A stretch of 32,000 bases of DNA, taken from Okeania sp. (lineage in GTDB: Bacteria > Cyanobacteriota > Cyanobacteriia > Cyanobacteriales > Microcoleaceae). The DNA lies in the NCBI RefSeq assembly GCF_035285525.1, contig NZ_JAYKGW010000109.1:27173-59172 (forward strand), read 5' to 3'. The notes beneath the pieces are model-generated. The model saw nothing but the letters and a program-made list of their open reading frames with translations. It was not told the origin of the DNA and did no database searches. A program made the translations under genes and the position numbers. This document shows positions 16,185 to 31,946 of this stretch, piece after piece; positions within the stretch are counted from its first letter, which is position 1; every line of letters starts with the position of its first letter.

Positions 16185-16348
16185 AATAATTGATGATTTA
16201 TAGATAATAATTGATTCTATTTTTGATTTTTAGAGATGTCTAATAATTAACAATAAAAAAAATGGGATTTGGAAACCAAACCCCTAAAATTTTTTTCACA
16301 AATCATTTCTTTGAGTTTATAGTATAAAAATTTTATGTTATGGATGTT

Positions 16349-16467
16349 CTTCAAAGTCCCCCTTACAAAGGGGGATTTAGGGGGATTGAAATCTACTTTT
16401 TTATATCTCCCCTTTGTCAGCGAGGGAGTCTTCAAAGTCCTCCTTACAAAGGGGGATTTAGGGGGAT
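16349..16467. repeat. Two copies of CTTCAAAGTCC(C/T)CCTTACAAAGGGGGATTTAGGGGGAT
   Basis: Copies at 16349-16386 and 16430-16467 differ by 1 nt. Each contains the hairpin CCCCTT-ACAA-AGGGGG. They create the spurious 'PLTKGDLGG' ORFs on both strands. Confidence 0.85.
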
Positions 16468-16716
16468 CAAACCCAAAACTGAGTCTTGAACCAAGATCTG
16501 TGTACACCGTAGCTTTCTCAGGCGGGTTGAATCACTGGATTACGTTCACCACAAAATTTAAGCAAATCTTCCACTTTGGCTCGAACCCTAGAAGCGATAA
16601 GCCTTAGACCGCGCCAGCGGGACAGGGTTTGGTAACAAATCATACAGTTGTCCCGTCACCCCTGCCCCCGGATTCGTGATATATCTGAGCATAGGAGCCA
16701 GCAGTAGAAGGTTTTT

Positions 16717-17469
16717 ATGCTATCCCTTGACGTTCCCCAGTATGCGTCCGCCCAAAAAATAAGTCAAACTTACCGAATTTTAGTGGTAGAAGATGAAGAA
16801 GTCATCCGCCAAATGCTGGTGCTCGCACTTCAGGAAGAAGGCTACGACGTCCTCTGGGCCGAGGATGGCCGCAGCGCCTTGGCGCTGATCCAAGATATTG
16901 AGGCCGCCTCCAATCAACCGCCTATCGATCTGATGTTGCTGGACCTGATGCTTCCCCAGGTCAACGGTCTGGATATCTGCCGCACCCTCCGTTATCAAGG
17001 CAACACCCTACCTATCCTCATCGTCAGCGCCAAGGCCAGCGAAACGGATCGGGTTTTGGGGCTAGAAGTCGGCGCCGACGATTACCTGAGCAAACCCTTT
17101 AGTATGCGGGAATTGGTTGCCCGTTGTCGGGCCCTGATTCGGCGCCAAAGTTTCGGCGCGGGTTCGACCAACACCTTCCGCAAGTTTCGGGATTTAGTGC
17201 TCTATCCCAAGGAATGCCGGGTCGTTCTCCGGGGGGAAGAGGTGAGTTTAGCGCCGAAGGAATACCGCCTACTGGAATTATTTATGGCCCATCCCCGCCG
17301 GGTTTGGTCCCGGGAACAACTAATCGAGCAAGTCTGGGGCATGGATTTTTTAGGCGACACCAAAACCGTGGATGTCCATATTCGTTGGTTACGGGAAAAA
17401 CTAGAACTAGACCCCAGTCAGCCCGAGTATATTATTACCGTTAGGGGTTTTGGCTACCGGTTTGGCTAG
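16717..17469 (+). CDS. OmpR/PhoB-family response regulator (SphR-like, assignment tentative)
   Basis: 250 aa. The receiver domain reads ILVVEDEE...DLMLLDLMLPQVNGLDIC...ILIVSAKASETDRVLGLEVGADDYLSKPF. The winged-helix C-terminus reads LAPKEYRLLELFM...VDVHIRWLREKLE...ITVRGFGYRF. Confidence 0.9.
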   Translation: MLSLDVPQYASAQKISQTYRILVVEDEEVIRQMLVLALQEEGYDVLWAEDGRSALALIQDIEAASNQPPIDLMLLDLMLPQVNGLDICRTLRYQGNTLPILIVSAKASETDRVLGLEVGADDYLSKPFSMRELVARCRALIRRQSFGAGSTNTFRKFRDLVLYPKECRVVLRGEEVSLAPKEYRLLELFMAHPRRVWSREQLIEQVWGMDFLGDTKTVDVHIRWLREKLELDPSQPEYIITVRGFGYRFG

Positions 17470-17538
17470 GCGGTTAATTTTCTCTTAACCTCGTCTATTC
17501 TAAATAGGTGTTGGCGCATCGACCGTGGGGGGTAAGCG

Positions 17539-18804
17539 ATGGATGTTTTGGCCCTAGTGTTGGGCGGACTTCTAGGTTTTGCCCTGGGATTGGGGGAGCG
17601 TTGGCGGCTCAAGCGCCGGTTAATGCCTTTTTTGACTTCCCTGGAAGATACCCCCCAGGTCGCTCGTTCTCTCTCGCTAATTTCCTTAGTACGCCGGGAA
17701 CTCGCTTATCTTAAAGACCGGGAATCCCGTCTGCTGGAGGAGCGAAGCCAGTCCCGCTTGATCTTAGAGCAGGCCCCCTGGGGCTATCTCCAGGTGGATG
17801 AAGACAACCATTTACTCTGGTGTAACCGTCAGGCCCAGAAATGGCTCCAGATTGACCGCTGGGAATCAAGGCAGTACCGGTTACTGTTAGAATGGGTGCG
17901 GTCTTCCGAGTTAGACCAATTGGTGGAGCGGACTCGCCAGACCCAAACCCCCCATATTCAGGAATGGCTTTTTTTTCCGCCCATCAACCCGGAGACCCTT
18001 AATCCAGGCAACCTCTCCTCCTGGTTACTGAAAGGGTATAGCTATCCTCTACCCCGGGGACAGGTGGCCATTTTTATCGAAAATCTCCAGCCCCTAGCGG
18101 AATTGCGCCGTAGTCGCGACCGAGTCTTCGCCGATCTGACCCACGAGTTACGCACGCCCCTGACGGCGATTTCCTTAGTCGCCGAGGCTCTCTTTCCCCG
18201 ACTTCAATCCCCAGAACAGGGCTGGGTGGGACAGATGCTGACAGAAACTGAGCGCTTACGCGCACTGGTAGACGAATGGCTCAGCCTTTCCCAGATTACG
18301 GAGAATCCGGGGCAGTGTCTGGATTTGGAAGATTTGGATCTGCGAGACGTTTTACTCTCCAGTTGGCAACGCCTGTTACCCTTAGCTCAGGAAAAACAGA
18401 TTCAACTGGATTACCAAGGCGCCGAGCAGTTATGGCTCCGGGGCGACCGGGATCGACTCATTCAAGTGTTTATCAATTTATTCGACAATTGTCTGAAACA
18501 TAGCCCAGAGAGGGGGGTAATTACCGTGTGGGCCGATTTAGGCGCTTCCCAGGCCCAGGTGCAAGTCTTGGATCAAGGCGCCGGCTTTAATCCCCAGGAT
18601 CTGCCCTTTATTTTTAACCGCCTCTACCGGGGCGATCCCTCCCGCCATCGGGGGCAGTCTCCCCGATCCGGTAGCGGTTTGGGGTTGGCTATCGCTAAAG
18701 AGATTATTGAAGCCCATCAGGGAAGCCTCGGCGCCGCCAACGATCCCCAAACCGGAGGGGCCTGTTTCACCGTCACCTTGCCGATTCTCTCAGAGGTTGT
18801 TTGA
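17539..18804 (+). CDS. Sensor histidine kinase, PhoR/SphS-like
   Basis: 421 aa with an N-terminal hydrophobic segment, a PAS-like region, the H-box FADLTHELRTPLTAI, an N-box FDNCLKHSP, FNRLYRGDPSR, and the G2 box GSGLGLAIAKEIIEAHQGSL. It starts 70 nt after the regulator stop. Confidence 0.88.
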   Translation: MDVLALVLGGLLGFALGLGERWRLKRRLMPFLTSLEDTPQVARSLSLISLVRRELAYLKDRESRLLEERSQSRLILEQAPWGYLQVDEDNHLLWCNRQAQKWLQIDRWESRQYRLLLEWVRSSELDQLVERTRQTQTPHIQEWLFFPPINPETLNPGNLSSWLLKGYSYPLPRGQVAIFIENLQPLAELRRSRDRVFADLTHELRTPLTAISLVAEALFPRLQSPEQGWVGQMLTETERLRALVDEWLSLSQITENPGQCLDLEDLDLRDVLLSSWQRLLPLAQEKQIQLDYQGAEQLWLRGDRDRLIQVFINLFDNCLKHSPERGVITVWADLGASQAQVQVLDQGAGFNPQDLPFIFNRLYRGDPSRHRGQSPRSGSGLGLAIAKEIIEAHQGSLGAANDPQTGGACFTVTLPILSEVV

Positions 18805-18967
18805 ATAAAGGGTCAACGCCCTGGTTTTATCCCCCCCTTGGACTGATCCCCTACCCAAAGAATCAGAAAAGCGCTTAACTGGACAAGAGCGTGATCTAAA
18901 TCACCCAAAGGTCGTTTGTGGTTTTGAGATTGCCGCCTTGGGTTAGTCACTTTTCTCGTTTCAAACC

Positions 18968-21900
18968 ATGTCTAACAACTACGGAGCATTTGCCGCTATT
19001 ACCGTTGATGCGGCCGGGACCGAACACGCCGTTTGGGAACAGAGCGGGGCCCTGTGGCATAGCTATTTTGATGAAACCGCTAACCAGTGGGTGGAAGGTC
19101 GTCCTGTGGCCACATCGGTTGGCGGGGGCAAACTGCAACTGATTACCGGCGATATTATTCCCTACCAAGTCACAGATACGGGAACGGGGCAAACCTTTAC
19201 CGAGTATGCGCCAGGGTTGGTGGCAATTTGGGCCGATAGCAACGGCGACCTGTTTTATGTCGTGGGGCGCTATGGGGAAGACCAAACGGTTCAGTGGTCA
19301 AATGCCGTCGAATTTGGCGCTCCTAATCTTAATAATCCCAATGACACCGTTTTTAGCCAAGATCCGGCGCTTGCGCTTACCCCAGCCACCATTACCCAAG
19401 AAGGTATAGCGACTCCGGCGGCGGTATCCGTGGTCTATTCCCAAGTCGATACCACGGTGGAATACATTGCCAACTGGCGGGGCAGTTTAGGCGATCAAAA
19501 TACCCTCATTAGCTTTCGTTTTACTGGTGTTGATAGCAATGGCGATGGCATTTTATCGGGGCGGGGCGCGAATAACAGTTTAGGGGATGGTATTAGCAAT
19601 GAATTGACAAGCTGGACAATGTTGGCGCTGTCGGCGGATGGCACGACGGTTTTAGCCAGTTATGACCTTAGCCAACAGTTAGCCCTCGACACCTTCAACT
19701 TTAATTTTGATCTAGCTAACCAACAAATTTTGGCCAATGCCGATGCAACCGTTTTTTCCCCCAGTGAAGATCTCTATGGCTTAAACACAGGGCTAGACCG
19801 TTCTGTTGATAGTGACGATGCCGTCTGGATACTCAAGAGTCAAAGCGCAAGCGAGGAGATTCAGTTACAAACCATTCCGGTCGGTTCAAACACCCCTACT
19901 ACCATTGCCATCAGTTCCCTAGCCAGCGCGATTTTTCCCGTTGCCAGCCAAACCAACGACGATACTGATCTTTACAGTGAATTCATTGCGTTTACGGGGG
20001 ATGCTCGCACTAGCGATACGCTCACCGATCAAAACGGCAATATGGTCACCTTTGCTGACCAAATACCGATTCCTGCCAGCTATGAACCTCTGGGGCCTGA
20101 GGCCCAGTTTTTGACTGCTGACACGATTAATTCCAAAAGTAATGAGGCTTTGTTGGGATTGGGCGCAACCTCTAGCAGTATTGCCACCACTCCCTTCGGC
20201 ACCACCCAAGGCTTTAATTTAACGTTTGCCGCCGCCAGTTGGATTTTAACGGGGCAAATTCCGCTACCCGCCTCCTTGATTCCGGCCGATAGCAATCAAA
20301 CGTATACCCTGACGGGGTCTATTGGCACGAGCAAGGAAGTCCAAGATGGACAAGTGGTTTACGTACTAGATACTAATGTTTCGATTGCCGAAGGGCCAAC
20401 CATTACATCTGGCTCCGATGAAAGCTCAGGTCGAGATCAATTTGTGGGAACCTCCCTGTCCCTTTCGTTAGACCTGAGCACCACATTTACCCCGGATGAG
20501 TCGGGGGATTTGCAATACTCAGACGCTTCCATAGGTTTGACGCTGGGATTTGGAACGTTTGATGCGATTCAACTGTCTGTTCCCCCTCTACCCGCAAAGC
20601 TAAAGGGAGGGATTTTGCAGGGGAGTGTCACCTTATCTAAACTGAATTTCACGGTTAATACTGGTGTTGACTTAGCAACCAAATCAACGACACCGCAACT
20701 GCCGATTTACCTGACGGGGAATGTCAACACTCCGGGTTCCATCCAGATGGTCAATCAAACCATCACGGCCTTTTTGAATGGAACAGAAGGTGAAGCGTTA
20801 GCGGGTTTGCCCCTGGCTCTATTGCAAACCATTGCTCTGCTGACCCTGGAAGAAAACGCCCAAGGGGAAGTGGAACCCGCTGAGGGAGGAATTTTAAATT
20901 ATCCTGTCGCGACGGTGGAAACCCTGATCGGCTTGCTCTATGGGTTGCAAATTGTGGAGCAGGTGGGCACGTTGTTGGGCGATTTGAAAAACTATACCTT
21001 TGAGGATCTGACTATTGGGCTGGATTATGCGCCGAACTTGAGCGGCAGTATCGGCGTGTTGTTCAATACCCTACAAGGCAACATGGGAGCGGGAGCTGAC
21101 ATTGGCATTGACTTGAATGTGGATAATACAGGGGCGGCCTCAGTCGATTTAGATTTTGCGGGTAATTTGTCGGCCAGCGCTTCATTTTTGCTCTGGAATT
21201 GGTCTTGGGGCTGGAATAAAGGGGTTAGCTATTCTTTTGATTTATCCACTAATTCATCAGCAACCTTAGCAACGGACAGCATAACTGACAGTACGGCCAG
21301 CGGCAATACAGGTGATGTCACTGTCATTTATGCCCCCACGACTGGCTCCAACATTCTTTACCAAACGACAGGGGCCGTCCGCTCCGACTTATCTGATCCC
21401 AGCGCCGGAACCCTCAATGATTTAACGGCAGATGATGATATTACCCTGGCGTTTGACCCCTATACCGGGTCAGTGTTATTGGCTTGGGTGGCGGCGGGCG
21501 GTGACAGTACCCTTCCCCTGGCCAGTCAAACCGGCGCGGTAGTTAGTCGGGTATATGCCTCGGCGTTGGATAGTTCTGGGCGGGGTTGGGATATTCCCAC
21601 CGTGGTGAATCAAACCAATGAGAGCCTTCATCCGGGGTTTAATTTCAACCCTAGTGGTGAATTTTTCTATACCAACACCAGTACCGGGGCGATCGCCAAT
21701 CCGGCCACCATTGAGGATTTTGCCGACTATACCCTTAACCGTATTTTGGTGTGGGGTTTTTCCGAAACAGCAGGGGATTTAAACGCCAACAGTACTCCTG
21801 ATGAAGTGCAAGCAGCGATCCAAGCGACCGATATTTATTACAGCCTCTCCAGTCGTCCCGCCAGTGGAGGTGTGTGGAGCGATTGGAGTGCGCCAGAAGT

Positions 21901-24900: not shown

Positions 24901-27900
24901 TAACCAATTGGCTAGTGCCCCCGATCCGAGTTTTAATTACTTCACGTTGAATGGAACCAATCCCCAAGACTTAATGGTTCCGGCCACCGATGCGGTAGAT
25001 GTCAATGGTGATGGCGTAGAGGATTTACTCGCCAGCGCCCTCGTTGGCAATCAAGTGGGCATTTTATTTGGCCATCCTTGGCTGGCGGACGAAGGCAGCT
25101 TGAAAATTAAAGACCTGACATCCAATCAGGGATTGATTATTCCGGGCGCAATTGACAACCCCACCGCCGCTCCACAGGTGATTTTACTGGGGGATTTAAA
25201 CGGTGATGGCTATAGTGAAACCTTGGTCAACAATACCCCCACCGCTAGTACTCTTGTCTTTGGGGGCGGCACCCAAGCACTTCTCGATGACAGTCTGGTT
25301 ACTCGTGAATTGACCTTAACCCAAGCGGTTTCTACCCAGTACACCGCCGTGGGGGATGTCAATGGGGATGGTTTGCAAGATGTTGTGGCAGAAACGAGCA
25401 ATTCTGCCCTAAATTTGAATGGCATTAACAATTATGCTCAAATTCCCAATATCGAAGCGATTAACTTTGATACGAATGACAACTTTACTGTAGAAGCGTG
25501 GATTTGGATCGATACCCAACAGCCAGATACCCAAGAGGGGGACAATGACATCATTGAAAAATGGTCAGAGCAAGGGGGATATCCGTTTGTTATTCGCTAT
25601 CAGAGAAGCGCTGGAGAAATTCTTGTCGCTCGTTTTGATGGCACAAATAATCCTGCCATAAGCGCAAAAATTGGAACTAACCAGTTCTACCATGTCGCCT
25701 TTGTTAAAGACGGTAAAAATTTATACCTTTATTTGGATGGCGAACTTGCGGCTTCCGCAACTGATACCACCACCAACAGCACTCAAAATAACTCTCCTCT
25801 ATTTTTAGGCAGAAGGGGTGCGAGTGATCGCCCTAACTATTTTGCTGGGCAGATCGATAATCTCCGTATCTGGAATGTGGCCCGTACCCAAGCCGAAATT
25901 CAGGCCAATCTCAACCAAACCATTGACAAGCCTCTAACCCAAACCAATTTAGTCGGGGATTACACCTTTGATAATGGAACGGTAGATGACAGTAGCCAAA
26001 AAGGAAATAACGGCGCTCTGGAAGCGGGAGCAACGATTACAATGGTTTCAGCCATCACGAGTTTATTGTTGGGGAATGAGACGTTAGGAACCCAAGAAAC
26101 GTTAGATATTTCCACGTTACCGTCCTTCTCTCTATCCTCATTATCTGGGTCAATTACAAACATTGTGCCGGGATTAGATCCCAATGGCGATGGATTTAAC
26201 GACTGGTTGATACAGACAACGGAAGCACTTTACTGGGTTGTGGGTAATGCCGAGGGAACGATCGCCGATCCGGTGGCGTTAGATTTGAGTAATGCCCCCC
26301 TAACGTTCACAGAATTTTTAGGTATTACGGCGATCGCCGACACCAACAATGATGGTTACAGCGACTTGATTGGCATTAACGCTAGCAGCACCCCTGAACT
26401 AAGAATTCCCTATGTCATTTATGGTTCGGCTAATTTTGGTCAAACAGACACTGCTCTCACCTATGGGCAATTACCGACCGTTAATTTATCTTTATCACCC
26501 CAATTGGATGTCTTAGACATTGGCGATGTTAATGGGGATGGCAAGGGCGATTTTGTGGTGATTGGCTCAGGGATTGAGGACAATCTTTTTTATCTTGCCA
26601 TTAGTGGCAGTGGAGAAACAAATTACACTTACGCCTCGCTAGAAGGTGAAAACATTGCTGACACCAATCCTTTGCAGTTAATCGGCAATGGAGATATTAA
26701 TGGGGATGGCTTTGATGATGTCATTGTCGGACAACCCAGTGCATCCAAAGTCTATGTCGTTTTTGGCAGTCCTAACTGGAAAAATGTAGGACAGACTGAT
26801 TTTATTTTCCTTCCCAGCCTCACCACATCAGCCACAACAACCGTTACTGCTGATGGTTTACCCCTATTCGGACTAACCATCGAAGGGCTGGCCAACTCCC
26901 AAGCTGGCTTAACCCTCGGTGGCGGTGAGGATGTGAATGGCGATGGGTTTGCCGATTTTGCCATTGGCGCACCGGGTGTGGATAACCTTAGCTATGTGCT
27001 GTTTGGCGGTGATTTCCTCGCAACATTGAGCCAAGGGGGAACGATCGCCAACGATGTTTTGGAGGGAACAGCAACGGGAGATAAAATTATCGGGAGCAAT
27101 GGCGCAGATTTTTTGGACGGCCGAGGAGGGTTTGATGTCCTTGTGGGTGGCTCCGGTAATGATGTCCTTGCCATTGGCGATACCGATTTTCGACGAGTTG
27201 ATGGGGGCAGTGGGCGCGACACTCTTAAGCTGGCAGGAGCGCTCAATCAAGTCTGGGATTTAACCGAGCTAAGCAGTGGTTTGCGACTCCAAAATCTAGA
27301 AGTTATTGACATGACCGGCTATGGCGAAAATACGTTAACCCTCAATGCCTTAACGGTTCTGAATTTATCTACCACCAGTAACAGCCTCTTTGTGGATGCA
27401 GATTCTGGCGCAAATGGTTTTACCGACACTCTATTCTTAGCGAGTGACTTTACCAACCAAGGAACCGTATCTGGTAATGGCGTTACCTACGATAAATATA
27501 CGTCGGCAGAAGCGTCTATTTATGTCACACCCGGAGTTCGGGTTATCTCTCTGGACACACTAACAGTTGTCACCACCAACGATGATATTGGTTCCGTCGA
27601 GGTCGCCATTACAAGCTTGACTGCGCCAGAAGAAAATTCCGTCGCCGTCTTCGACGCAACCCCCCGCATTTTTGTCTCTGAAGGGGTGGTTTCTGAAAGC
27701 GAATCAGAGGCTAAGTTCACAGTTACCCGAACTGGTGACATTAGTGAAGGCTTAACCCTAAATTACACGACTCTCGATGGTACTGCTGATGCGGGCACCC
27801 ATTTTATCCCTCGCTCCGGCAAACTGATTTTTGGGCCGGGGGTCGAAACCCTCTCTGTGGATATTCCCCTGATTGATGACATTATTCTACGGCAGTCCAA

Positions 27901-28429
27901 TCGCAACTTTGACTTACGAATCCTGGAATCCTTTAGCCAGGGAGGCGACTTTAGCCAACCGATCGCCGCTGGAGAGGGGGACGATGTGGTTCAGGTGAGC
28001 GCTCAAGATTCTTATATTTTGGGAGAAGGCGGGAATGATCGCCTTTTCGGCGGTTCCAGTAACGACCAATTGCTAGGCGGGAGTGGCGATGATTTTCTCA
28101 GCGGAAATCGAGGCAGTGATCAACTAACCGGCGGGCTTGGCAACGACACCTTTGTGTTCACGGCTTTACACGACGCGGGCGACCTCATTTTTGACTTTGA
28201 AGTCGGCGTTGATTTAATCGATCTCAGTCAACTACTCGACACGCTCAATTATGGAGGCAGTGACCCGATCGCCGATGGTTATGTCCAGTTTGGTGCCGCT
28301 GGGGAAACCCATTCCCAACTGTTTATCGATCCTGACGGGAGTTTGGGAGCAGCCAGTCGTCGGGCCTTTGCATTTCTATTCGATGTGGATGTTGGGGGCC
28401 TGAGTGATGCCACTAATTTTTGCTTTTAG
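18968..28429 (+). CDS. Giant (3,153 aa) secreted multidomain protein: unassigned N-terminal ~1,075 aa, 2 LamG, ~13 FG-GAP/integrin-alpha loops, Calx-beta, RTX repeats, T1SS C-terminal target domain
   Basis: A single uninterrupted ORF with no N-terminal signal peptide (MSNNYGAFAAITVD...). Domain motifs are listed in the sub-features below. All overlapping ORFs in other frames are short and look like GC-driven artefacts. Confidence 0.92.
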   Translation: MSNNYGAFAAITVDAAGTEHAVWEQSGALWHSYFDETANQWVEGRPVATSVGGGKLQLITGDIIPYQVTDTGTGQTFTEYAPGLVAIWADSNGDLFYVVGRYGEDQTVQWSNAVEFGAPNLNNPNDTVFSQDPALALTPATITQEGIATPAAVSVVYSQVDTTVEYIANWRGSLGDQNTLISFRFTGVDSNGDGILSGRGANNSLGDGISNELTSWTMLALSADGTTVLASYDLSQQLALDTFNFNFDLANQQILANADATVFSPSEDLYGLNTGLDRSVDSDDAVWILKSQSASEEIQLQTIPVGSNTPTTIAISSLASAIFPVASQTNDDTDLYSEFIAFTGDARTSDTLTDQNGNMVTFADQIPIPASYEPLGPEAQFLTADTINSKSNEALLGLGATSSSIATTPFGTTQGFNLTFAAASWILTGQIPLPASLIPADSNQTYTLTGSIGTSKEVQDGQVVYVLDTNVSIAEGPTITSGSDESSGRDQFVGTSLSLSLDLSTTFTPDESGDLQYSDASIGLTLGFGTFDAIQLSVPPLPAKLKGGILQGSVTLSKLNFTVNTGVDLATKSTTPQLPIYLTGNVNTPGSIQMVNQTITAFLNGTEGEALAGLPLALLQTIALLTLEENAQGEVEPAEGGILNYPVATVETLIGLLYGLQIVEQVGTLLGDLKNYTFEDLTIGLDYAPNLSGSIGVLFNTLQGNMGAGADIGIDLNVDNTGAASVDLDFAGNLSASASFLLWNWSWGWNKGVSYSFDLSTNSSATLATDSITDSTASGNTGDVTVIYAPTTGSNILYQTTGAVRSDLSDPSAGTLNDLTADDDITLAFDPYTGSVLLAWVAAGGDSTLPLASQTGAVVSRVYASALDSSGRGWDIPTVVNQTNESLHPGFNFNPSGEFFYTNTSTGAIANPATIEDFADYTLNRILVWGFSETAGDLNANSTPDEVQAAIQATDIYYSLSSRPASGGVWSDWSAPEVAFAMAGTDSLPTVGQDPDGNLRLAWVSDSAINDEPLSTIYTSTWDASNDQWTEAAIVAQQSDLRVSKLILDAFGSNPAIYWTDDIAPSYSATVLDDDPAWYYRLNDSGSSVAQNLGNLGSTYNGAYVGGTVAIVADSALVNTETGDGDPDASAQFSATAGGYLSIPFSQSSLNGSYTLELWVKLDSTASGQILLQKLPLATDSNSTPTPEWILQTGEGGTLVFDVGNGEITSEALTTGEWYYVVATLDSSINGTQDNPISALYLNGALVGQQQGSANPKADASVVAGQNLDGQLDEIAIYNALFTPTPDPTVDASGNITNYDPGITGVNAISNHYVARYNLPANVVKDGTFYAVYDGSEWSSSNLFAPQPQDPVTQPLLSRLPTYDVVSTSGLAPDGVTDLYTQISLVNPNATLNAIQVTSPDGNTIWSSNWATDGHLPLAIIQGDELTNNASGVSHTLLGITETFDLYFQGTASTSNYTVKVVFSDGATATQFQPLLPNPSQSGTAGDVISAQGDILEDEVSSLAQIDSGLTLATSEDYVGTAMAAGAFLDGQMAIAIAAPYAKPSANGATGDGAIIIIPAGKTLNSNAGLTLDPTTVPTGGVLITGVEGSQENAGYTLGVGDINGDGKADLVIGAPRGNNQAGIIYVVFGEYLTANSSLNLATLVSEGKALAISGFSSASEAGTALAVGNLNGDDYADILVGAPYGSAGAGEVYAIYGSASSSLTPQLIFTGEAGSTAGFAVDIVPVNSSRHTLNADVHADIVIGAPNYQQTVTFNSRFQNVNAPKDAINAWLATTPTVPDNQNITGSNDLTLTTGRAYVLLGQGGNFATGLTQSALGANNGFILDGSSIFNSDGDAGYSVSGAGDLNGDTYEDLAIGAPAESKGAGSVYVVAGRSSFADYIDQDPLSLAWDSNLILTAPEASAHLGRLVADAGDFNGDGANDLLIGSPNAGYSAGQAHILFGNTSSSNNPLWSSATGNAYSTITPLQPGATQGTAFFNQLASAPDPSFNYFTLNGTNPQDLMVPATDAVDVNGDGVEDLLASALVGNQVGILFGHPWLADEGSLKIKDLTSNQGLIIPGAIDNPTAAPQVILLGDLNGDGYSETLVNNTPTASTLVFGGGTQALLDDSLVTRELTLTQAVSTQYTAVGDVNGDGLQDVVAETSNSALNLNGINNYAQIPNIEAINFDTNDNFTVEAWIWIDTQQPDTQEGDNDIIEKWSEQGGYPFVIRYQRSAGEILVARFDGTNNPAISAKIGTNQFYHVAFVKDGKNLYLYLDGELAASATDTTTNSTQNNSPLFLGRRGASDRPNYFAGQIDNLRIWNVARTQAEIQANLNQTIDKPLTQTNLVGDYTFDNGTVDDSSQKGNNGALEAGATITMVSAITSLLLGNETLGTQETLDISTLPSFSLSSLSGSITNIVPGLDPNGDGFNDWLIQTTEALYWVVGNAEGTIADPVALDLSNAPLTFTEFLGITAIADTNNDGYSDLIGINASSTPELRIPYVIYGSANFGQTDTALTYGQLPTVNLSLSPQLDVLDIGDVNGDGKGDFVVIGSGIEDNLFYLAISGSGETNYTYASLEGENIADTNPLQLIGNGDINGDGFDDVIVGQPSASKVYVVFGSPNWKNVGQTDFIFLPSLTTSATTTVTADGLPLFGLTIEGLANSQAGLTLGGGEDVNGDGFADFAIGAPGVDNLSYVLFGGDFLATLSQGGTIANDVLEGTATGDKIIGSNGADFLDGRGGFDVLVGGSGNDVLAIGDTDFRRVDGGSGRDTLKLAGALNQVWDLTELSSGLRLQNLEVIDMTGYGENTLTLNALTVLNLSTTSNSLFVDADSGANGFTDTLFLASDFTNQGTVSGNGVTYDKYTSAEASIYVTPGVRVISLDTLTVVTTNDDIGSVEVAITSLTAPEENSVAVFDATPRIFVSEGVVSESESEAKFTVTRTGDISEGLTLNYTTLDGTADAGTHFIPRSGKLIFGPGVETLSVDIPLIDDIILRQSNRNFDLRILESFSQGGDFSQPIAAGEGDDVVQVSAQDSYILGEGGNDRLFGGSSNDQLLGGSGDDFLSGNRGSDQLTGGLGNDTFVFTALHDAGDLIFDFEVGVDLIDLSQLLDTLNYGGSDPIADGYVQFGAAGETHSQLFIDPDGSLGAASRRAFAFLFDVDVGGLSDATNFCF
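22196..22813 (+). other. Giant protein domain: LamG / concanavalin-A-like lectin (Laminin_G_3-type) #1
   Basis: AWYYRLNDSGSSVAQNLGN...SYTLELWVKLDSTASGQILLQK...GEWYYVVATLD...LYLNGALVGQQ...LDGQLDEIAIYNALF. Confidence 0.7.
23500..25400 (+). other. Giant protein domain: FG-GAP/integrin-alpha-like beta-propeller block 1 (8 calcium-loop motifs)
   Basis: GDINGDGKADLVIGAP, GNLNGDDYADILVGAP, NADVHADIVIGAP, GDLNGDTYEDLAIGAP, GDFNGDGANDLLIGSP, VDVNGDGVEDLLAS, GDLNGDGYSETLV, GDVNGDGLQDVVAE. Confidence 0.85.
25401..25915 (+). other. Giant protein domain: LamG / concanavalin-A-like lectin #2, inserted between the FG-GAP blocks
   Basis: LNLNGINNYAQIPN...FTVEAWIWID...FYHVAFVKDGKNLYLYLDGELAAS...FAGQIDNLRIWNVARTQAEIQANL. 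Confidence 0.75.
26170..26980 (+). other. Giant protein domain: FG-GAP block 2 (5 calcium-loop motifs)
   Basis: LDPNGDGFNDWLIQ, ADTNNDGYSDLIGI, GDVNGDGKGDFVVIG, GDINGDGFDDVIVGQP, EDVNGDGFADFAIGAP. Confidence 0.8.
27050..27235 (+). other. Giant protein domain: RTX (hemolysin-type calcium-binding) nonapeptide repeats #1
   Basis: LEGTATGDKIIGSNGADFLDGRGGFDVLVGGSGNDVLAIGD...DGGSGRDTL. Confidence 0.8.
27640..27925 (+). other. Giant protein domain: Calx-beta
   Basis: FVSEGVVSESESEAKFTVTRTGDISEGLTLNYTTLDGTADAGTHFIPRSGKLIFGPGVETLSVDIPLIDDIILRQSNRNFDLRI. Confidence 0.8.
27970..28165 (+). other. Giant protein domain: RTX nonapeptide repeats #2
   Basis: GEGGNDRLFGGSSNDQLLGGSGDDFLSGNRGSDQLTGGLGNDTFVF. 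Confidence 0.85.
28166..28426 (+). other. Giant protein domain: type I secretion C-terminal target domain (VC_A0849-subclass-like)
   Basis: GDLIFDFEVGVDLIDLSQLLDTLNYGGSDPIADGYVQFGAAGETHSQLFIDPDG...FAFLFDV, at the extreme C-terminus directly after the RTX repeats. Confidence 0.65.
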
Positions 28430-28505
28430 GGACTGAATCCCCCCTATGTCTCCCTTGCCACCTTTCTCAACCTTGTCCATCTTTTATCAATCCTGCTCAT
28501 TGATT

Positions 28506-29090
28506 ATGAACATGAAATTCTTAACCTTTACCACTAGCGCCATTTTCTCGGCGATCGGGCTGACTCTCACCGCCTTTCCAGCCCAGGCGGCGATTATTCA
28601 TTATGAATTTTCTGTCTTGATCGAGAGTGGCTCCCTCGTTGGGCAAACCTTTGATGGCACTTTTCGTTATGACGATGCCGACGTGGCAGGATCACCCCAG
28701 GCGACGGCGACGGTAACGGGTTTTGATTTCGATTTTAATGGCGCTAACTATTGTTACGGTAATCTTTGTAACGGCAGTATTGGGGAAACCATAATGACTG
28801 CGCCCGTCGCCTATTTTGCCGTTTTCGACCCCAGCGCCTTTGTGGGACTCAACGGCAGTTACATTAATGGCGATTTTTCGTTTGACTTTAACAATGCCTT
28901 TGTCAGTCCCGATGATTCTAGTTTTGACTATAGTCTTTCCGCCTTACCCAACGACTCAGGCGTTGGCAAACCCTCTTATTCCGCTGTTCCTGAACCTTTT
29001 ACACTGTTAGGCGCTGTCTCAGCCCTTTTTTGGGGGGCGACGTTTAAGCGTAAAGTCGGACACAAGGGAAGTGGTCAAAAATTGTCTTAG
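28506..29090 (+). CDS. PEP-CTERM sorting-domain protein with unknown secreted N-terminal domain
   Basis: Signal peptide MNMKFLTFTTSAIFSAIGLTLTAFPAQA. The C-terminus is VPEPFTLLGAVSALFWGATFKRK, i.e. PEP motif, TM helix and basic tail. The ORF track starts at 28446, but ATG 28506 gives a proper signal peptide. Confidence 0.8.
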   Translation: MNMKFLTFTTSAIFSAIGLTLTAFPAQAAIIHYEFSVLIESGSLVGQTFDGTFRYDDADVAGSPQATATVTGFDFDFNGANYCYGNLCNGSIGETIMTAPVAYFAVFDPSAFVGLNGSYINGDFSFDFNNAFVSPDDSSFDYSLSALPNDSGVGKPSYSAVPEPFTLLGAVSALFWGATFKRKVGHKGSGQKLS

Positions 29091-29201
29091 GAGATTAGTG
29101 CAAAATCAATCATAAGCTTTACGATTTTATCCTAAGCTTCCTTAGATTCTTCGTCTAACAGTTATTTTATTTTCAGTTGTTTACCAACACTTTTGTTTAT
29201 C

Positions 29202-30899
29202 ATGCTCAACAAAATTCTGTCCCTGCAATATTTATCTAGCCTGATGACCAAGAAAGCACTGATTTCTCCTATTTGTCAGTTGATGGTCATACCGACCACC
29301 CTATTACTAGGGGCACTGCCCGCAGTGGCTGGCTCAATTGGGTTGCCCCTTCCTACCATTACTGAATTAGCCAAAGATGCTTGGATTTACGGTTTTGCCC
29401 CAGTGACCGTTGCCGAAAAGGAGTTTAATCAAACGATTCCGACTGCTGATGCCGTTTATGCTCCGATCAATAAATTATTCATCGATACGGCTACCCCACT
29501 CCCCGATAATCAACTTTGGGTATCTCCGAATGTCAATGTTGTCTATGCTTCCTCCCATATTGACTTAACGAATCAACCCCTTATTCTCTTTAACCCAGAC
29601 CGGAGTACAACCCCCTTTGCTGATCAATACTTTGTTTGGCAATTTATGGATGCTTACACCAATGACTATGACTATGTTGGAAGTCGTACCACTGGGCAGG
29701 GGGAAGGGACTTATGCCATTGTTGGGCCAAATTTCAACGGAACGATTCCTTTTCCTATCACGAAAACCATCACATCACCCACCAATTCTGGTTGGATTGT
29801 CGGACGATTTGAAGTGACGCCTAACTCTACCTCAGATCGCAATGAGGTTGTAAACTTGATTCAAAAAAACGTTTTTCTAACGCTTAATGAATATCAATCA
29901 TTTATTATTGACGGAAATGACCCAGATTATAAAAATCCAATCATTACAAAACCTGGCATCGAGTTTCCAGAATTAAATGTTGAAGGTCTAGAGTTTTTCA
30001 ATGTTCTGAATCGTTGGTTAGTCAAAAATCCTCCCCCGGCTCTAGACAATCCAATTTTAGGGCAAATTGCTCAAATTGGTATTAGCCCGGTCGAAAGTGA
30101 ACAAATCGAATTTGATGATCAATTTATTATCAATAATCTCGATGAAGCGGCCGCTCTGCTCTTGGGAATTAAAGAGGCAGAAGAAATCGCCGCTATCAAA
30201 ACCATTGAGCCAGACCAAGCCTATTGTGTTGGCAGTGATGTTTCTTTTGATAACTGTTCTGAGGATCAGAAATTATTAATTAATGATGTCCACAATGGTT
30301 GGTTTTATTCTTTGGGAACTCCTTTTGGTAACTTTGAGGATGAGTATCTACCCCGAACCTTATTAGCTCGTGGTGGCTTAGGAGGAAATGTAGTTGAGGA
30401 AGCAGTTTATCCCGTTCGTTTTTTCGATGAAAACGATCAACTCTTATCTCCAACTAAGCAATATACGTTTACGTTTGAAGCGGGGTTTGATCCAGTGAAT
30501 GATCCTGGTTTCTGGTCAATCACAATGTACGACTTAGAAACTGGCGAAATCGTTGCCAATCCCTTGGATCGTTATACTATCGGTAGTCAAAATGACTTAA
30601 TTCCTAATCAGGATGGGTCGATTACGATTTATATTCAGCGGGATAATCCCGGTGGCGATCAAACTAACAACTGGTTGCCCACAGCAGTATCAGGGAATGA
30701 TCCTTTCTATCTTCTATTTCGTGCCTACAACCCCAAGGAAGGATTTTATACGCCTGTTTCTCTCATCCAAGACACGGAAATTCCTTTGCCGAATATCCAG
30801 ACAGAACCAGTTCCCGAACCTTTAACTCTTCTGGGAACTACCACAGCAATTATTTTTGGGGCATCATTTAAGCAACGTCTAAATAGAAAGAATAAGTAG
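29202..30899 (+). CDS. DUF1254/DUF1214-domain protein carrying a PEP-CTERM sorting tail
   Basis: Signal-like N-terminus. AKDAWIYGFAPV is DUF1254-like and DPGFWSITMYD is DUF1214-like. The C-terminus is PVPEPLTLLGTTTAIIFGASFKQRLNRKNK. I prefer ATG 29202 over TTG 29193. Confidence 0.7.
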   Translation: MLNKILSLQYLSSLMTKKALISPICQLMVIPTTLLLGALPAVAGSIGLPLPTITELAKDAWIYGFAPVTVAEKEFNQTIPTADAVYAPINKLFIDTATPLPDNQLWVSPNVNVVYASSHIDLTNQPLILFNPDRSTTPFADQYFVWQFMDAYTNDYDYVGSRTTGQGEGTYAIVGPNFNGTIPFPITKTITSPTNSGWIVGRFEVTPNSTSDRNEVVNLIQKNVFLTLNEYQSFIIDGNDPDYKNPIITKPGIEFPELNVEGLEFFNVLNRWLVKNPPPALDNPILGQIAQIGISPVESEQIEFDDQFIINNLDEAAALLLGIKEAEEIAAIKTIEPDQAYCVGSDVSFDNCSEDQKLLINDVHNGWFYSLGTPFGNFEDEYLPRTLLARGGLGGNVVEEAVYPVRFFDENDQLLSPTKQYTFTFEAGFDPVNDPGFWSITMYDLETGEIVANPLDRYTIGSQNDLIPNQDGSITIYIQRDNPGGDQTNNWLPTAVSGNDPFYLLFRAYNPKEGFYTPVSLIQDTEIPLPNIQTEPVPEPLTLLGTTTAIIFGASFKQRLNRKNK

Positions 30900-30932
30900 C
30901 CTGACGGCAACGCTTTACTCAATGACCGAGAT

Positions 30933-31215
30933 ATGAAAACCGATCCCCAAAATCATTCCTCAACGTTAGAGCAACCCCTCAGAATCGTAAATACTGATAG
31001 TTTTGCGGCAATTCTGACCCAGTTGGGGATTTCTCTCGTTGTTTCCACCTATCAAGCTGGCAAATTGATTGTTATGGGGGCTGAGAATGAGATGAGCGTT
31101 AACACCCATTTTCGTCGTCTAAAAAAATCCCCCCGAAGGTAAACATGAAGCCTGTTTCTTGCTTCGAAATATGCACATCACAGGAGATATTGACATTCAT
31201 GAAACGGTCGCCCCA
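30933..31215 (+). pseudogene. Remnant of a TIGR03032-like conserved hypothetical gene
   Basis: The first 65 codons (...FAAILTQLGISLVVSTYQAGKLIVMG...VNTHFRR) resemble the family N-terminus as I recall it. The frame then stops at 31140-31142. A second fragment in another frame (ACFLLRNMHITGDIDIHETVAPNT*) follows, and the rest of the ~330-aa protein is absent. Confidence 0.35.
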
Positions 31216-31277
31216 AATACGTGACAGCCTAGATCCCCAAAGTAATGAATTGGTTTGTGTAGCCCAAGTGCTGGGTT

Positions 31278-31895
31278 TTACGAGGGGTCTAGATTTCTAT
31301 GACCATAAGGATCTCCCAAGTATTTCCGCAGGTAGGGAGAAAAAACTTCATAAATTAAGGTCAGAGGTTTACCGGCGTGCCAGAACAAATAATGGCGCCC
31401 CCAAAAGGGGCCAGTTTCTTGAAAGGCAGTTTCTAAAGCGGGCTGGTTTCCATAGTACAGACCCTGCACATCCCGATAGAGTTCGCTGTGGAGGCGGGAC
31501 AAACTTTCCCAAATGGGCAAACTGCGATTTTCTAAATACTCGTCCACATGGCTGGCGTCCCACCAAGAGACGGCGTAGGCTAATCGCTGGCCCGAAGCGG
31601 TTCTTAACCAGACCTGGCGCCGGAGCCAGGGACGGGGCACAGCTTCGATTTGGCCCGGCGCCGCCGGATCGGCTTTTTCAACTAAGGACATGTCTAACAC
31701 ATCCACCTCGGTTTTTTCCCCCGTCAGTAGTTGCAAGTGGCGGGTGGGAGAGCCGTCTCCGAGGATTAGCATCTGCCAAGCCGGAGCGAGTTGCCGGTGG
31801 GGCAAACCAGTTTTCACCGTCTGTTGGTCTCCTTGCCACAGCAATTCTAGGCTATGCCAGGAAGAAGCCAGCACCGTTGGGGAAGAGTGTATCAA
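31278..31895 (-). CDS. Chorismate lyase (chorismate pyruvate-lyase, cyanobacterial UbiC-like / DUF564)
   Basis: 205 aa. MLILGDGSPTRHLQLLTGEKTEVDVL...RRQVWLRTASGQRLAYAVSWW fits the cyanobacterial chorismate lyase pattern. The overlapping + strand ORF 31145-31900 is its antisense shadow. Confidence 0.6.
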   Translation of the reverse strand: MIHSSPTVLASSWHSLELLWQGDQQTVKTGLPHRQLAPAWQMLILGDGSPTRHLQLLTGEKTEVDVLDMSLVEKADPAAPGQIEAVPRPWLRRQVWLRTASGQRLAYAVSWWDASHVDEYLENRSLPIWESLSRLHSELYRDVQGLYYGNQPALETAFQETGPFWGRHYLFWHAGKPLTLIYEVFSPYLRKYLGDPYGHRNLDPS

Positions 31896-31946
31896 AGTGA
31901 AGTTACAAAAATTTACGTCTTTTTTAAGATAGCAAACCCAAGACGG

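What the first reader, a model, noticed from the sequence alone, without database searches (positions are those of the whole stretch)
16717..30899. Co-oriented block: two-component system, giant T1SS protein and two PEP-CTERM proteins as a candidate cell-surface module using two sorting routes
Five consecutive + strand genes have short spacers (70, 163, 76 and 111 nt by my preferred starts) and no obvious terminator hairpins between them. A T1SS-signal substrate sits directly upstream of two PEP-CTERM (exosortase-dependent) proteins and directly downstream of a PhoR/SphS-like sensor pair. I know of no described system coupling an RTX/T1SS adhesin with exosortase cargo under a dedicated two-component system. 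A regulated calcium-dependent matrix or aggregation module is a reasonable hypothesis. It is hypothesis only, because co-transcription is not shown.
Basis: inference. Interest (0 to 1): 0.65.

Follow-up and report, generated by a model that had tools for sequence, protein, structure and literature searches.

The report
Surface-protein island beside a phosphate-type sensor pair
The five genes are real, but the sensor/regulator pair is a conserved housekeeping-type neighbour, and a 12.5-kb strain-specific block (a giant calcium-binding secreted protein plus two PEP-CTERM surface proteins) has landed next to it; only those three cargo genes show any conserved linkage.

Summary
Five co-oriented genes encode an OmpR/PhoB-type regulator, a PhoR-like kinase, a 3153-aa FG-GAP/LamG/Calx-beta/RTX protein, and two cyano-PEP-CTERM proteins, one of them DUF1254+DUF1214.

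In the only three close relatives found (HK 93-96% aa identity), the kinase gene directly abuts the convergent chorismate-lyase gene. Window 18845-31305, which holds the giant gene and both PEP-CTERM genes, is a 12.46-kb indel. It has lower GC3 than its flanks and a truncated TIGR03032/DUF4915 remnant at its right end.

The three cargo genes do show linkage:
- The closest giant homolog (L045) sits next to a 51%-identical DUF1254/DUF1214 protein. That protein has an RTX tail and no signal peptide, instead of signal peptide plus PEP-CTERM.
- Another homolog (L056) is followed 98 nt later by a small PEP-CTERM protein of the gene-4 family.
- Four more distant homolog contexts have neither partner.

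Separately, window 1-~16.2 kb (GC3 ~0.2, Trichodesmium/Okeania/Dapis-like) is joined to a GC3 ~0.6 lineage. This is probably a chimeric metagenome contig.

Verdict: an accessory surface-protein island beside an unrelated sensor pair, with modest interest in a possible T1SS/exosortase cargo pairing.

The parts
16181..16553 (.). Boundary between a low-GC segment (Trichodesmium/Okeania/Dapis-like, GC3 ~0.2) and a high-GC segment (RI_101-like, GC3 ~0.6). Probably a chimeric assembly join.
   Evidence: GC profile and per-gene GC3. Cluster names of proteins on each side. An independent Logan contig identical to the left side ends at 16181. Homology to relatives L001 and L003 starts at 16553. L001 and L003 share an ilvC gene upstream that the window lacks.
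16348..16467 (+). Two 39-nt direct repeats (16348-16386 and 16429-16467, 97% identical), a small repeat element lying at the composition boundary.
   Evidence: the repeat finder family D7. Not present in any fetched locus.
16717..17469 (+). OmpR/PhoB-family response regulator (250 aa).
   Evidence: Pfam Response_reg + Trans_reg_C. Best NCBIfam match is PhoB, below cutoff. Members of its 90% cluster are named PhoB by JGI. Conserved at about 90% nt identity in L001 and L003.
17473..17499 (+). Pho-box-like tandem octamers GTTAATTT-tct-CTTAACCT-cgt-CTATTCTA in the RR-HK spacer. The middle box matches the Synechocystis SphR consensus exactly.
   Evidence: Pattern search; the window-wide count is not above chance. 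Identical in L001 and L003 and partly kept in L002. Consensus taken from PMC1906773.
17539..18804 (+). PhoR/SphS-like sensor histidine kinase (421 aa): N-terminal hydrophobic segment, weak PAS, HisKA, HATPase_c.
   Evidence: A cluster mate is named PhoR by JGI. In relative L002 it is adjacent to polyphosphate kinase.
18809..18832 (+). Weak terminator-like hairpin plus U-run after the HK stop, inside the part shared with relative L001.
   Evidence: The fold is not significant (z = 0.33).
18845..31305 (+). 12.46-kb block present here but absent at this site in three related genomes. It lies between the 3' ends of the convergent HK and chorismate-lyase genes. GC3 is 0.50/0.50/0.37 against 0.57-0.61 in the flanks.
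   Evidence: blastn and alignments against L001-L003. GC3. No terminal repeats, integrase or tRNA.
18968..28429 (+). Giant 3153-aa Ca2+-binding protein and predicted T1SS substrate. Domain map in aa: 1-~1130 no Pfam domain; LamG_3 ~1138-1284; FG-GAP 1594-2140; LamG_3 2152-2312; FG-GAP 2404-2680; RTX 2691-2762; Calx-beta 2906-2986; RTX 3027-3063; then a ~90-aa C-terminal tail. No N-terminal signal peptide.
   Evidence: Homologs P0002-P0004 at 44-53% identity.
28506..29090 (+). Gene 4: small PEP-CTERM protein of 194 aa (an alternative ATG at 28446 gives 214 aa). It has a signal peptide, a ~130-aa all-beta domain and a VPEP...KRK tail.
   Evidence: TIGR04155 at 37.7 bits. Family of 147 representatives. 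AF2 model with alignment, pLDDT 80.6. No convincing PDB fold match.
29202..30899 (+). Gene 5: DUF1254 + DUF1214 protein with a Sec signal peptide and a PEP-CTERM tail (565 aa; alternative TTG at 29193).
   Evidence: Relatives at 93-94% identity on short contigs. 51% identical to an RTX-tailed homolog in L045.
30933..31139 (+). 69-codon remnant of a TIGR03032/DUF4915-family gene at the right edge of the block.
   Evidence: Translations. NCBIfam hit for the L050 counterpart. Homology to L050 ends at 31115.
31278..31895 (-). Cyanobacterial chorismate lyase, convergent to the block. In relatives it is the immediate neighbour of the HK.
   Evidence: NF037993 at 283.6 bits, above cutoff. Synteny.

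Best explanation
The five-gene row is a juxtaposition, not one system.

(1) The RR/HK pair is a conserved PhoB/PhoR (SphR/SphS)-like two-component system of a ~55% GC cyanobacterial lineage ('Cyanobacteria bacterium RI_101'-like). It exists in that lineage without the downstream genes.

(2) Window 18845-31305 is a strain-specific accessory block. It sits in the gap between the convergent HK and chorismate-lyase genes, and most likely arrived by insertion.

(3) The block encodes a cell-surface or matrix gene cluster, which I read as follows:
- The giant protein has no signal peptide. It has a C-terminal RTX block and tail, so it would be exported in one step by a T1SS encoded elsewhere. Outside the cell it would fold on Ca2+ through its RTX beta-roll, its FG-GAP propellers (10 DxNxDGxxD-type sites) and its Calx-beta domain. 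It would present LamG lectin-like modules.
- Genes 4 and 5 would cross the inner membrane by the Sec pathway and be held by their PEP-CTERM helix. A cyanoexosortase encoded elsewhere would then process them onto the cell surface or exopolysaccharide.
- Each partner recurs next to a close homolog of the giant protein. I therefore infer that the three products act together at the surface, for example as a docking or accessory set for the giant adhesin-like protein.

Shown here: the gene content, the indel, and the recurrence of the partners. Inferred: export routes, surface location, physical or functional interaction, and the direction of the indel.
For: Indel:
- Window 16553-18844 matches L001 9009-11303 at 90% identity.
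- Window 31306-32000 matches L001 11441-12143, L003 2696-3390 and L002 11195-11806.
- In L002 and L003 the HK stop codon overlaps the lyase 3' end.

The two-component system is independent of the cargo:
- L001 and L003 carry ilvC-RR-HK-ubiC. L002 carries ppk next to the HK with no RR.
- RI_101 has only a 30%-identical giant paralog, at another locus.

Foreign character of the block:
- GC3 is 0.50, 0.50 and 0.37 against 0.57-0.61 in the flanks.
- There is a truncated TIGR03032/DUF4915 remnant at the right edge.
- In L050 the same gene-5-plus-remnant unit sits in a different context.

Cargo linkage:
- L045 has a DUF1254/DUF1214 protein, 51% identical over aa 49-521, directly upstream of the closest giant homolog P0002.
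- L056 has a gene-4-family PEP-CTERM protein 98 nt downstream of P0003. It scores 165 bits against the family HMM and is 33% identical to gene 4 (E = 7e-19).

Sorting signals: TIGR04155 is above cutoff for both proteins; RTX repeats are shown.

Background from the literature:
- Cyanoexosortase B is needed for export of PEP-CTERM proteins, motility and biofilm in Nostoc (PMC12188702).
- RTX proteins are T1SS substrates and are abundant in cyanobacteria (PMC3034196).
Against: - Only three informative contexts exist for the close clade. Each partner recurs once, in a different position (upstream in L045, downstream in L056).
- Four more distant homolog contexts lack both partners: L047, L048, L049 and Synechocystis pSYSM L055.
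- Gene-5 homologs in L052-L054 and a gene-4-family member on Nostoc pNPUN01 are not next to giant genes.
- No promoter-like site was found in the 163-nt spacer before the giant gene and no strong terminator after the HK. Read-through from the two-component operon therefore cannot be excluded.
- Deletion in the relatives, rather than insertion here, is not formally excluded.
- No T1SS or exosortase gene lies in the window.
Confidence: 0.6

Rival explanations
1. One reading: all five genes form one regulated, calcium-dependent matrix or aggregation module, with the RR/HK as its dedicated regulator.
For: The genes are co-oriented with short spacers, no strong terminator and no promoter-like site in the 163-nt spacer before the giant gene. 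Another giant paralog (P0008 in RI_101) also has a response regulator and a hybrid kinase next to it, though of a different type and downstream.
Against: The two-component system is conserved in three relatives without the cargo. None of seven giant-homolog contexts has a PhoB/PhoR-type pair. The pair's best family matches, and the names given to its cluster mates, are phosphate-regulon PhoB/PhoR. In L002 the kinase sits next to ppk. No Pho-box pair lies upstream of genes 3-5.
Confidence: 0.06
2. Regulatory capture: the block is foreign, but because it landed just downstream of the HK without a promoter of its own, it is transcribed by read-through from the RR-HK operon. It would then be incidentally phosphate-responsive in this strain.
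For: No consensus promoter in 18805-18967, and only a weak hairpin after the HK. A Pho-box-like element with a perfect CTTAACCT core lies in the RR-HK spacer and is conserved in relatives (consensus from PMC1906773).
Against: The promoter scan is a crude sigma-70 consensus and its hit count equals chance. The Pho-box match is not above chance window-wide. No upstream motif is shared with homologous loci. There are no expression data.
Confidence: 0.15
3. The three cargo genes are also just neighbours. RTX and PEP-CTERM genes are each so numerous in cyanobacteria that such adjacency arises by chance in variable, mobile-element-rich regions.
For: Published counts reach 35 RTX genes per cyanobacterial genome (PMC3034196) and 36-42 PEP-CTERM genes in Nostoc and Anabaena (PMC1569441). 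Giant-homolog loci are flanked by transposases and integrases. Distant homologs lack the partners. GC3 differs between gene 5 (0.37) and the giant gene (0.50).
Against: The partners that recur are not just any PEP-CTERM genes. They are homologs of gene 4 (a family with only 147 representatives among 1.84 billion proteins) and of gene 5 (51% identity), and they lie next to the closest homologs of the giant protein.
Confidence: 0.25
4. The block, or its junctions, is an assembly artefact like the left-hand join.
For: The same contig already contains one join between two different cyanobacterial lineages. Homology to L050 breaks at 31115, inside a gene remnant.
Against: An artefact would have to leave the HK/ubiC locus at 18844 and return to exactly the same intergenic point at 31306, in the same orientation. 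The giant ORF is intact over 9.5 kb.
Confidence: 0.04

Closest known systems
Cyanobacterial giant RTX / FG-GAP / Calx-beta / LamG surface proteins. Examples: the LamG-like 3797-aa protein on Synechocystis PCC 6803 plasmid pSYSM, 'SwmB domain-containing' and 'Calx-beta domain-containing' proteins of Synechocystis, Geminocystis and Cyanobacterium aponinum, and functionally the RTX surface proteins SwmA, oscillin and Sll1951.
   Same: Size class of 3000-4100 aa. Same domain vocabulary, C-terminal RTX repeats and no signal peptide, and cyanobacterial hosts. RTX proteins of cyanobacteria are surface, S-layer or motility proteins exported by T1SS (PMC3034196).
   Different: Only 28-31% identical to the named examples. 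It lacks SWM_repeat, DUF4114 and BNR domains and has a ~1130-aa N-terminal region with no Pfam or PDB match. No function has been demonstrated for this clade.
PEP-CTERM / cyanoexosortase (CrtB) sorting system
   Same: Both downstream proteins have a signal peptide and a TIGR04155 cyano_PEP tail. In Nostoc punctiforme, CrtB-dependent PEP-CTERM proteins mediate adhesion to polysaccharide, motility and biofilm (PMC12188702).
   Different: No exosortase gene lies in the window. Pairing of PEP-CTERM cargo with a giant T1SS-type protein is not mentioned in that paper (0 occurrences of RTX or T1SS).
PrsK/PrsR, the dedicated two-component system of proteobacterial PEP-CTERM/EpsH systems
   Same: It is a precedent for a two-component system tied to PEP-CTERM genes (PMC1569441).
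   Different: PrsR is a sigma-54-interacting regulator and was not found in the cyanobacteria of that study (Table 1). The RR here is OmpR/PhoB-type with a winged-helix output and no AAA+ domain.
SphS/SphR (PhoR/PhoB) phosphate-sensing two-component system of cyanobacteria
   Same: Domain architecture, best family matches, names given to close relatives, ppk adjacency in L002, and a Pho-box-like element in the RR-HK spacer.
   Different: Scores are below the NCBIfam equivalog cutoffs. Orthology to Synechocystis SphS/SphR was not tested directly, and there are no functional data.
DUF1254/DUF1214 proteins (solved structures VPA0106 3U07 and VPA0735 2P3Y/3VB9, all 'uncharacterized')
   Same: Both Pfam domains are above threshold. 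Sequence matches to those PDB entries.
   Different: The sorting signal varies within the ~45-51% identity subfamily: PEP-CTERM here, an RTX tail in L045, lipoprotein-type signal peptides or none in others. The biochemical function is unknown.

Membership tests
PhoB/PhoR (SphR/SphS) phosphate two-component system | RR with receiver plus OmpR-type winged-helix domain; HK with HisKA plus HATPase_c and a PAS-containing sensor region | tested here: met
   Pfam hits. The PAS hit is weak: 18.1 bits against a cutoff of 22.6.
PhoB/PhoR (SphR/SphS) phosphate two-component system | Scores above the curated equivalog thresholds for PhoB and PhoR | tested here: not met
   PhoB TIGR02154 scores 235 against a cutoff of 296. 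PhoR TIGR02966 scores 177 against 334. PnpS scores 180 against 400. These are nevertheless the top-ranked families.
PhoB/PhoR (SphR/SphS) phosphate two-component system | Tandem Pho boxes (CTTAACCT-like octamers with 3-bp linkers) at target promoters | tested here: inconclusive
   One conserved candidate lies in the RR-HK spacer (17473-17499). There is none upstream of genes 3-5, and the window-wide count equals chance.
PhoB/PhoR (SphR/SphS) phosphate two-component system | Response to phosphate limitation | not testable with these tools
   Needs expression or mutant data.
PrsK/PrsR PEP-CTERM regulatory system | Sigma-54-interacting (AAA+) response regulator paired with the PrsK kinase | tested here: not met
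   The RR has only Response_reg + Trans_reg_C. No PrsR or PrsK model appears among the 25 listed NCBIfam hits of either protein (104 and 75 families matched in all).
RTX / type I secretion substrate | Gly/Asp-rich nonapeptide repeats close to the C-terminus, followed by an uncleaved C-terminal region | tested here: met
   HemolysinCabind hits at aa 2691-2762 and 3027-3063. Seven GGxGxDxUx matches. A 90-aa tail follows.
RTX / type I secretion substrate | No N-terminal Sec signal peptide | tested here: met
   By reading the N-terminus MSNNYGAFAAITVDAAGTEHAVWEQ..., which has no hydrophobic h-region. No signal-peptide predictor was available.
RTX / type I secretion substrate | Cognate ABC transporter, MFP and TolC-like OMP; demonstrated secretion | not testable with these tools
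   None is encoded in the window (Pfam/NCBIfam were run only on the ORFs from 14424 rightwards) or in the flanks of L045. The rest of the genome is not available.
PEP-CTERM / cyanoexosortase cargo | C-terminal PEP motif, hydrophobic helix and basic cluster matching TIGR04155 above cutoff | tested here: met
   37.7 and 36.1 bits against a cutoff of 21.6. Tails are VPEPFTLLGAVSALFWGATFKRK and VPEPLTLLGTTTAIIFGASFKQRLNRKNK.
PEP-CTERM / cyanoexosortase cargo | N-terminal signal peptide | tested here: met
   By reading: MKFLTFTTSAIFSAIGLTLTAFPAQA|A for gene 4 and ...TTLLLGALPAVAG|S for gene 5. No predictor was run.
PEP-CTERM / cyanoexosortase cargo | Exosortase (CrtA/CrtB) present in the same genome | not testable with these tools
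   Not in the window.
DUF1254/DUF1214 family | Both Pfam domains above gathering score | tested here: met
   PF06863 at 99.4 bits and PF06742 at 103.6 bits.
LapA-type retained T1SS adhesin (LapG/LapD controlled) | N-terminal retention module with a LapG cleavage site, plus linked lapG/lapD genes | not tested
   No lapG- or lapD-like gene was noted in the window. The N-terminal region has no Pfam or PDB match.
Single operon of five genes | Co-transcription across all junctions | not testable with these tools
   Only consensus scans and folding are possible, and both are uninformative.

The most novel reading that the evidence does not exclude
A conserved three-component surface module. A giant T1SS-exported LamG/FG-GAP/Calx-beta/RTX protein would work with two small partners, a gene-4-family beta-domain protein and a DUF1254/DUF1214 protein. 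The partners reach the same extracellular compartment by a different route (Sec plus PEP-CTERM/cyanoexosortase), and the DUF1254/DUF1214 partner can be switched in evolution to the T1SS route (RTX tail, no signal peptide, as in L045). The PEP-CTERM partner would then be the cell-surface or EPS anchor, or an accessory factor, for a T1SS adhesin. That would be a functional coupling between type I secretion and exosortase sorting that has not been described.
Probability: 0.3. Interest if true: 0.6.

Novelty: new member of a known kind. Interest (0 to 1): 0.33.

Why it matters
As stated, the finding would have been the first two-component-controlled system coupling T1SS and exosortase cargo. That coupling to a regulator is not real: the regulator is a conserved PhoB/PhoR-like pair that merely borders a strain-specific insertion.

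What remains is more modest. The block is a clean example of an accessory cell-surface island in an uncultured marine cyanobacterial lineage. It also gives a lead, from three loci, that one clade of giant RTX proteins travels with specific PEP-CTERM and DUF1254/DUF1214 partners whose sorting signal can be swapped. If that holds up, it would give a first functional handle on DUF1254/DUF1214 proteins. It would also bear on how giant T1SS proteins are held at the cyanobacterial surface.

The probable chimeric join at ~16.2-16.55 kb also matters in practice. Anyone using this contig or MAG would mix two organisms.

Tried and rejected
- Exact-sequence look-ups of the RR, the HK, the giant protein and a junction-spanning ORF found no independent contig. 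Only the left-flank hydrolase was found, on a 1.8-kb Logan contig that stops short of the junction.
- tRNA and Rfam scans of the whole window were empty, so there is no tRNA integration site and no riboswitch or sRNA.
- A repeat search found no terminal direct or inverted repeats and no target-site duplication at the block edges.
- A Pho-box search found nothing upstream of genes 3-5.
- Alignment of the regions upstream of the giant genes from four loci showed no shared motif.
- A metagenome scan with a gene-5 alignment returned only four loci, none with a giant neighbour.
- The word-based protein search called gene 4 an orphan. The exhaustive HMMER search corrected this.
- Single-sequence AF2 of gene 4 failed (pLDDT 31). 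The alignment-based model was good (pLDDT 80.6), but Foldseek against the PDB gave no match at E <= 0.001 and TM scores mostly <= 0.4 (highest 0.55, target-normalised, on a 93-residue chain). No fold assignment is made.
- The HMM of the gene-4 family does not hit the giant proteins. The idea that gene 4 mimics a repeat of the giant protein was dropped.
- Plasmid searches gave only distant homologs without the partners.
- I considered and rejected the idea that the high-GC segment is an island inside the low-GC genome. Both sides carry core genes (the left-flank ORF 9414-10040, read by eye as rimM (not run through Pfam/NCBIfam), against RR/HK/ubiC), and the high-GC side is syntenic with independent high-GC genomes.

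Full report
**1. Observation**

Family assignments from Pfam and NCBIfam:
- The first gene is an OmpR/PhoB-type response regulator. Its best model is PhoB TIGR02154 at 235 bits, below the 296-bit cutoff.
- The second is a PhoR/PnpS-like histidine kinase with HisKA, HATPase_c and a weak PAS.
- The third is a 3153-aa protein with FG-GAP, two Laminin_G_3 domains, Calx-beta and RTX repeats.
- The last two proteins match the cyanobacterial PEP-CTERM model TIGR04155 above its cutoff (37.7 and 36.1 bits against 21.6). The second of them also carries DUF1254 + DUF1214.

Scanning the giant protein in ten overlapping pieces gave this domain map in aa:
- 1-~1130: no Pfam domain
- ~1138-1284: LamG_3
- 1594-2140: FG-GAP
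- 2152-2312: LamG_3
- 2404-2680: FG-GAP
- 2691-2762: RTX
- 2906-2986: Calx-beta
- 3027-3063: RTX
- final ~90 aa: C-terminal tail

The only terminator-like feature in a spacer is a weak 5-bp hairpin with a U-run just after the kinase stop (18809-18832). No spacer folds better than shuffled sequence, and promoter and terminator counts equal chance.

**2. The two-component system does not belong to the cargo**

A scan of one genome per species (GTDB) with the kinase found only three close relatives: L001 (MAG 'Cyanobacteria bacterium RI_101', 96% aa), L002 (93%) and L003 (94%). The next hit is a Nostoc at 44%.

At the DNA level, window 16553-18844 aligns to L001 and L003 at about 90%. The next aligned segment is window 31306-32000, which holds the chorismate-lyase gene on the minus strand. 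In all three relatives that segment follows the kinase directly. In L002 and L003 the kinase stop codon overlaps the lyase 3' end, and L001 has a 137-bp spacer.

Window 18845-31305, which is the giant gene plus both PEP-CTERM genes, is therefore a 12.46-kb indel between two convergent conserved genes.

In L001 and L003 the pair lies between ilvC and the lyase. In L002 the regulator is not adjacent at all, and the kinase sits next to polyphosphate kinase. JGI names close cluster mates PhoB and PhoR. The RR-HK spacer carries a Pho-box-like element, GTTAATTT-tct-CTTAACCT-cgt-CTATTCTA. It is conserved in the relatives, and its middle box equals the Synechocystis SphR consensus. Window-wide, such matches are not above chance.

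No Pho-box pair lies upstream of genes 3-5.

**3. Nature of the inserted block**

- GC3 is 0.50 (giant gene), 0.50 (gene 4) and 0.37 (gene 5), against 0.57-0.61 for the flanking RR, HK and lyase genes.
- At the right edge lies a 69-codon remnant of a TIGR03032/DUF4915-family gene (30933-31139).
- A 93%-identical copy of gene 5 plus a longer version of the same remnant lies on an independent contig (L050). There it is followed by MoxR/VWA-type genes rather than the lyase, and homology ends at window 31115.
- No integrase, tRNA, terminal repeat or target duplication marks the edges.

An assembly artefact is unlikely. The sequence leaves and re-enters the same intergenic point in the same orientation. 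I favour insertion here over three deletions elsewhere, but the direction is inferred.

**4. Do the three cargo genes belong together?**

The giant protein's nearest homologs are P0002 (53% in the best segment), then P0003 and P0004 (44% over about 70% of the length). Everything else is at or below 37%.

Contexts of the close clade:
- L045 (P0002) has a DUF1254/DUF1214 protein directly upstream. It is 51% identical to gene 5 over aa 49-521, but it has no signal peptide and carries a C-terminal RTX block instead of PEP-CTERM.
- L056 (P0003) has a 164-aa ORF 98 nt downstream of the giant gene. It has a signal peptide, the gene-4 domain and a VPEP...KR tail. It scores 165 bits against an HMM of the gene-4 family and is 33% identical to gene 4 (E = 7e-19).
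- L046 (P0004) ends in an IS fragment and is uninformative.

Four more distant homolog loci have neither partner: L047, L048, L049 and Synechocystis plasmid pSYSM. Gene-5 homologs elsewhere, and a gene-4-family member on Nostoc pNPUN01, are not beside giant genes.

Gene 4 is not an orphan. Exhaustive HMMER finds 147 representatives of a family of ~170-190-aa proteins built as signal peptide, domain and PEP-CTERM tail; of the ten members looked up, one cluster carries an organism name, Crocosphaera. An alignment-based AF2 model is all-beta with pLDDT 80.6 and has no convincing PDB analogue.

Within the ~45-51% identity DUF1254/DUF1214 subfamily, the same core carries PEP-CTERM, an RTX tail, lipoprotein-type signal peptides or nothing. 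This is 'choice-of-anchor' behaviour and points to an exported protein. Solved structures of the family are all uncharacterized.

Each partner thus recurs once beside a close homolog of the giant protein. That is more than the base rate of generic RTX/PEP-CTERM adjacency would give. But n = 3, and the gene order differs between loci.

**5. Mechanism (inferred)**

- The giant protein lacks a signal peptide and ends in RTX repeats plus a tail, so a T1SS encoded elsewhere would export it.
- Ca2+ would then drive folding of the RTX beta-roll, the FG-GAP propellers (ten DxNxDGxxD-type sites) and the Calx-beta domain.
- The LamG modules suggest carbohydrate or matrix binding.
- Genes 4 and 5 would go through Sec, be held by the PEP-CTERM helix and be processed by a cyanoexosortase.

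In Nostoc punctiforme, CrtB is required for PEP-CTERM protein export, adhesion to polysaccharide, motility and biofilm (PMC12188702). RTX proteins are abundant in cyanobacteria and include surface and motility proteins (PMC3034196).

A plausible but untested reading is that the PEP-CTERM partners dock or modify the giant protein at the surface or in the EPS.

**6. Comparison with known systems**

- A two-component system dedicated to PEP-CTERM genes does exist in Proteobacteria (PrsK/PrsR, PMC1569441). PrsR is sigma-54-dependent and was absent from the cyanobacteria in that study. The regulator here is OmpR/PhoB-type, so it is not a member.
- The giant protein belongs to the loosely defined class of cyanobacterial giant RTX/FG-GAP/Calx-beta proteins. 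It is a new member with an uncharacterized N-terminal third.
- I found no description of a conserved pairing of T1SS giant proteins with PEP-CTERM partners. The literature search was limited.

**7. Side finding: the contig looks chimeric**

- Window 1-~16.2 kb has 33% GC and GC3 ~0.2. Its proteins fall in >=90% clusters with Trichodesmium, Okeania and Dapis.
- From ~16.55 kb onward the sequence has GC3 ~0.6 and is syntenic with RI_101-like MAGs.
- Both sides carry core genes.
- L001 and L003 have ilvC where the window has low-GC sequence.
- An independent contig identical to the left side ends at 16181.
- Two 39-nt repeats lie at the boundary.

A chimeric metagenome join is the simplest explanation. 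It does not touch the five genes, but it removes the native context upstream of the regulator.

**8. Verdict**

The genes and annotations are correct, and the five-gene regulated module is not supported. The block is a strain-specific accessory surface-protein island beside a conserved phosphate-type sensor pair. The lead worth following is the possible functional pairing of this clade of giant RTX proteins with gene-4-family and DUF1254/DUF1214 partners across two sorting routes.

Noticed in passing
window 1-16553 versus 16553-32000: There is a sharp composition break: 33% GC and GC3 ~0.2 on the left against ~54% GC and GC3 ~0.6 on the right. Left-side proteins cluster at >=90% identity with Trichodesmium, Okeania and Dapis. 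The right side is syntenic with 'Cyanobacteria bacterium RI_101'-like MAGs. The contig is probably a chimeric metagenome assembly of two cyanobacteria.
   Followed up: partly
window 16348-16386 and 16429-16467: Two 39-nt direct repeats (TCTTCAAAGTCC[C/T]CCTTACAAAGGGGGATTTAGGGGGAT) lie 81 nt apart at the composition boundary. They are a small repeat element and are absent from all fetched loci.
   Followed up: partly
window 17473-17499: A Pho-box-like tandem octamer with a perfect CTTAACCT core lies in the RR-HK spacer. It is identical in L001 and L003 and partly kept in L002. This hints at autoregulation of the kinase gene by a PhoB-like regulator.
   Followed up: partly
L002 7660-11197: In one close relative the kinase has no adjacent response regulator. 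It lies divergent to polyphosphate kinase (ppk), and the regulator appears to be on another contig of that MAG.
   Followed up: partly
window 30933-31139; L050 1706-2197: A truncated TIGR03032/DUF4915-family gene remnant follows gene 5 both in the window and in an independent 93%-identical contig. The two copies are cut at different points.
   Followed up: yes
L045 6619-9102: This DUF1254/DUF1214 homolog (51% identical to gene 5) has no signal peptide and carries a C-terminal RTX block. Other subfamily members carry lipoprotein-type signals or no signal. One catalytic core is therefore found with several alternative sorting signals.
   Followed up: partly
window 12740-14185 (- strand): A Ser/Thr kinase gene with a C-terminal GUN4-like region, judged by eye, appears split into two ORFs (13805-14185 and 12740-13762). 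This could be a frameshift, a pseudogene or a sequencing error.
   Followed up: no
window 1914-3629 (+ strand): Two ORFs (1914-2513 and 2514-3629) are contiguous and in the same frame, separated only by a stop codon. This could be an interrupted gene or an error.
   Followed up: no
window 25268-27000: GC dips to 44-47% inside the giant gene, against 50-53% elsewhere in it. The dip covers the second LamG domain and the second FG-GAP block and may reflect mosaic or recombinant origin.
   Followed up: no
L049 20066-23997: The giant paralog of MAG RI_101 (P0008, 30% identical) is followed by a stand-alone receiver protein and an 1187-aa PAS/GAF hybrid kinase. This is a different kind of two-component neighbour from the one in the window.
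   Followed up: no
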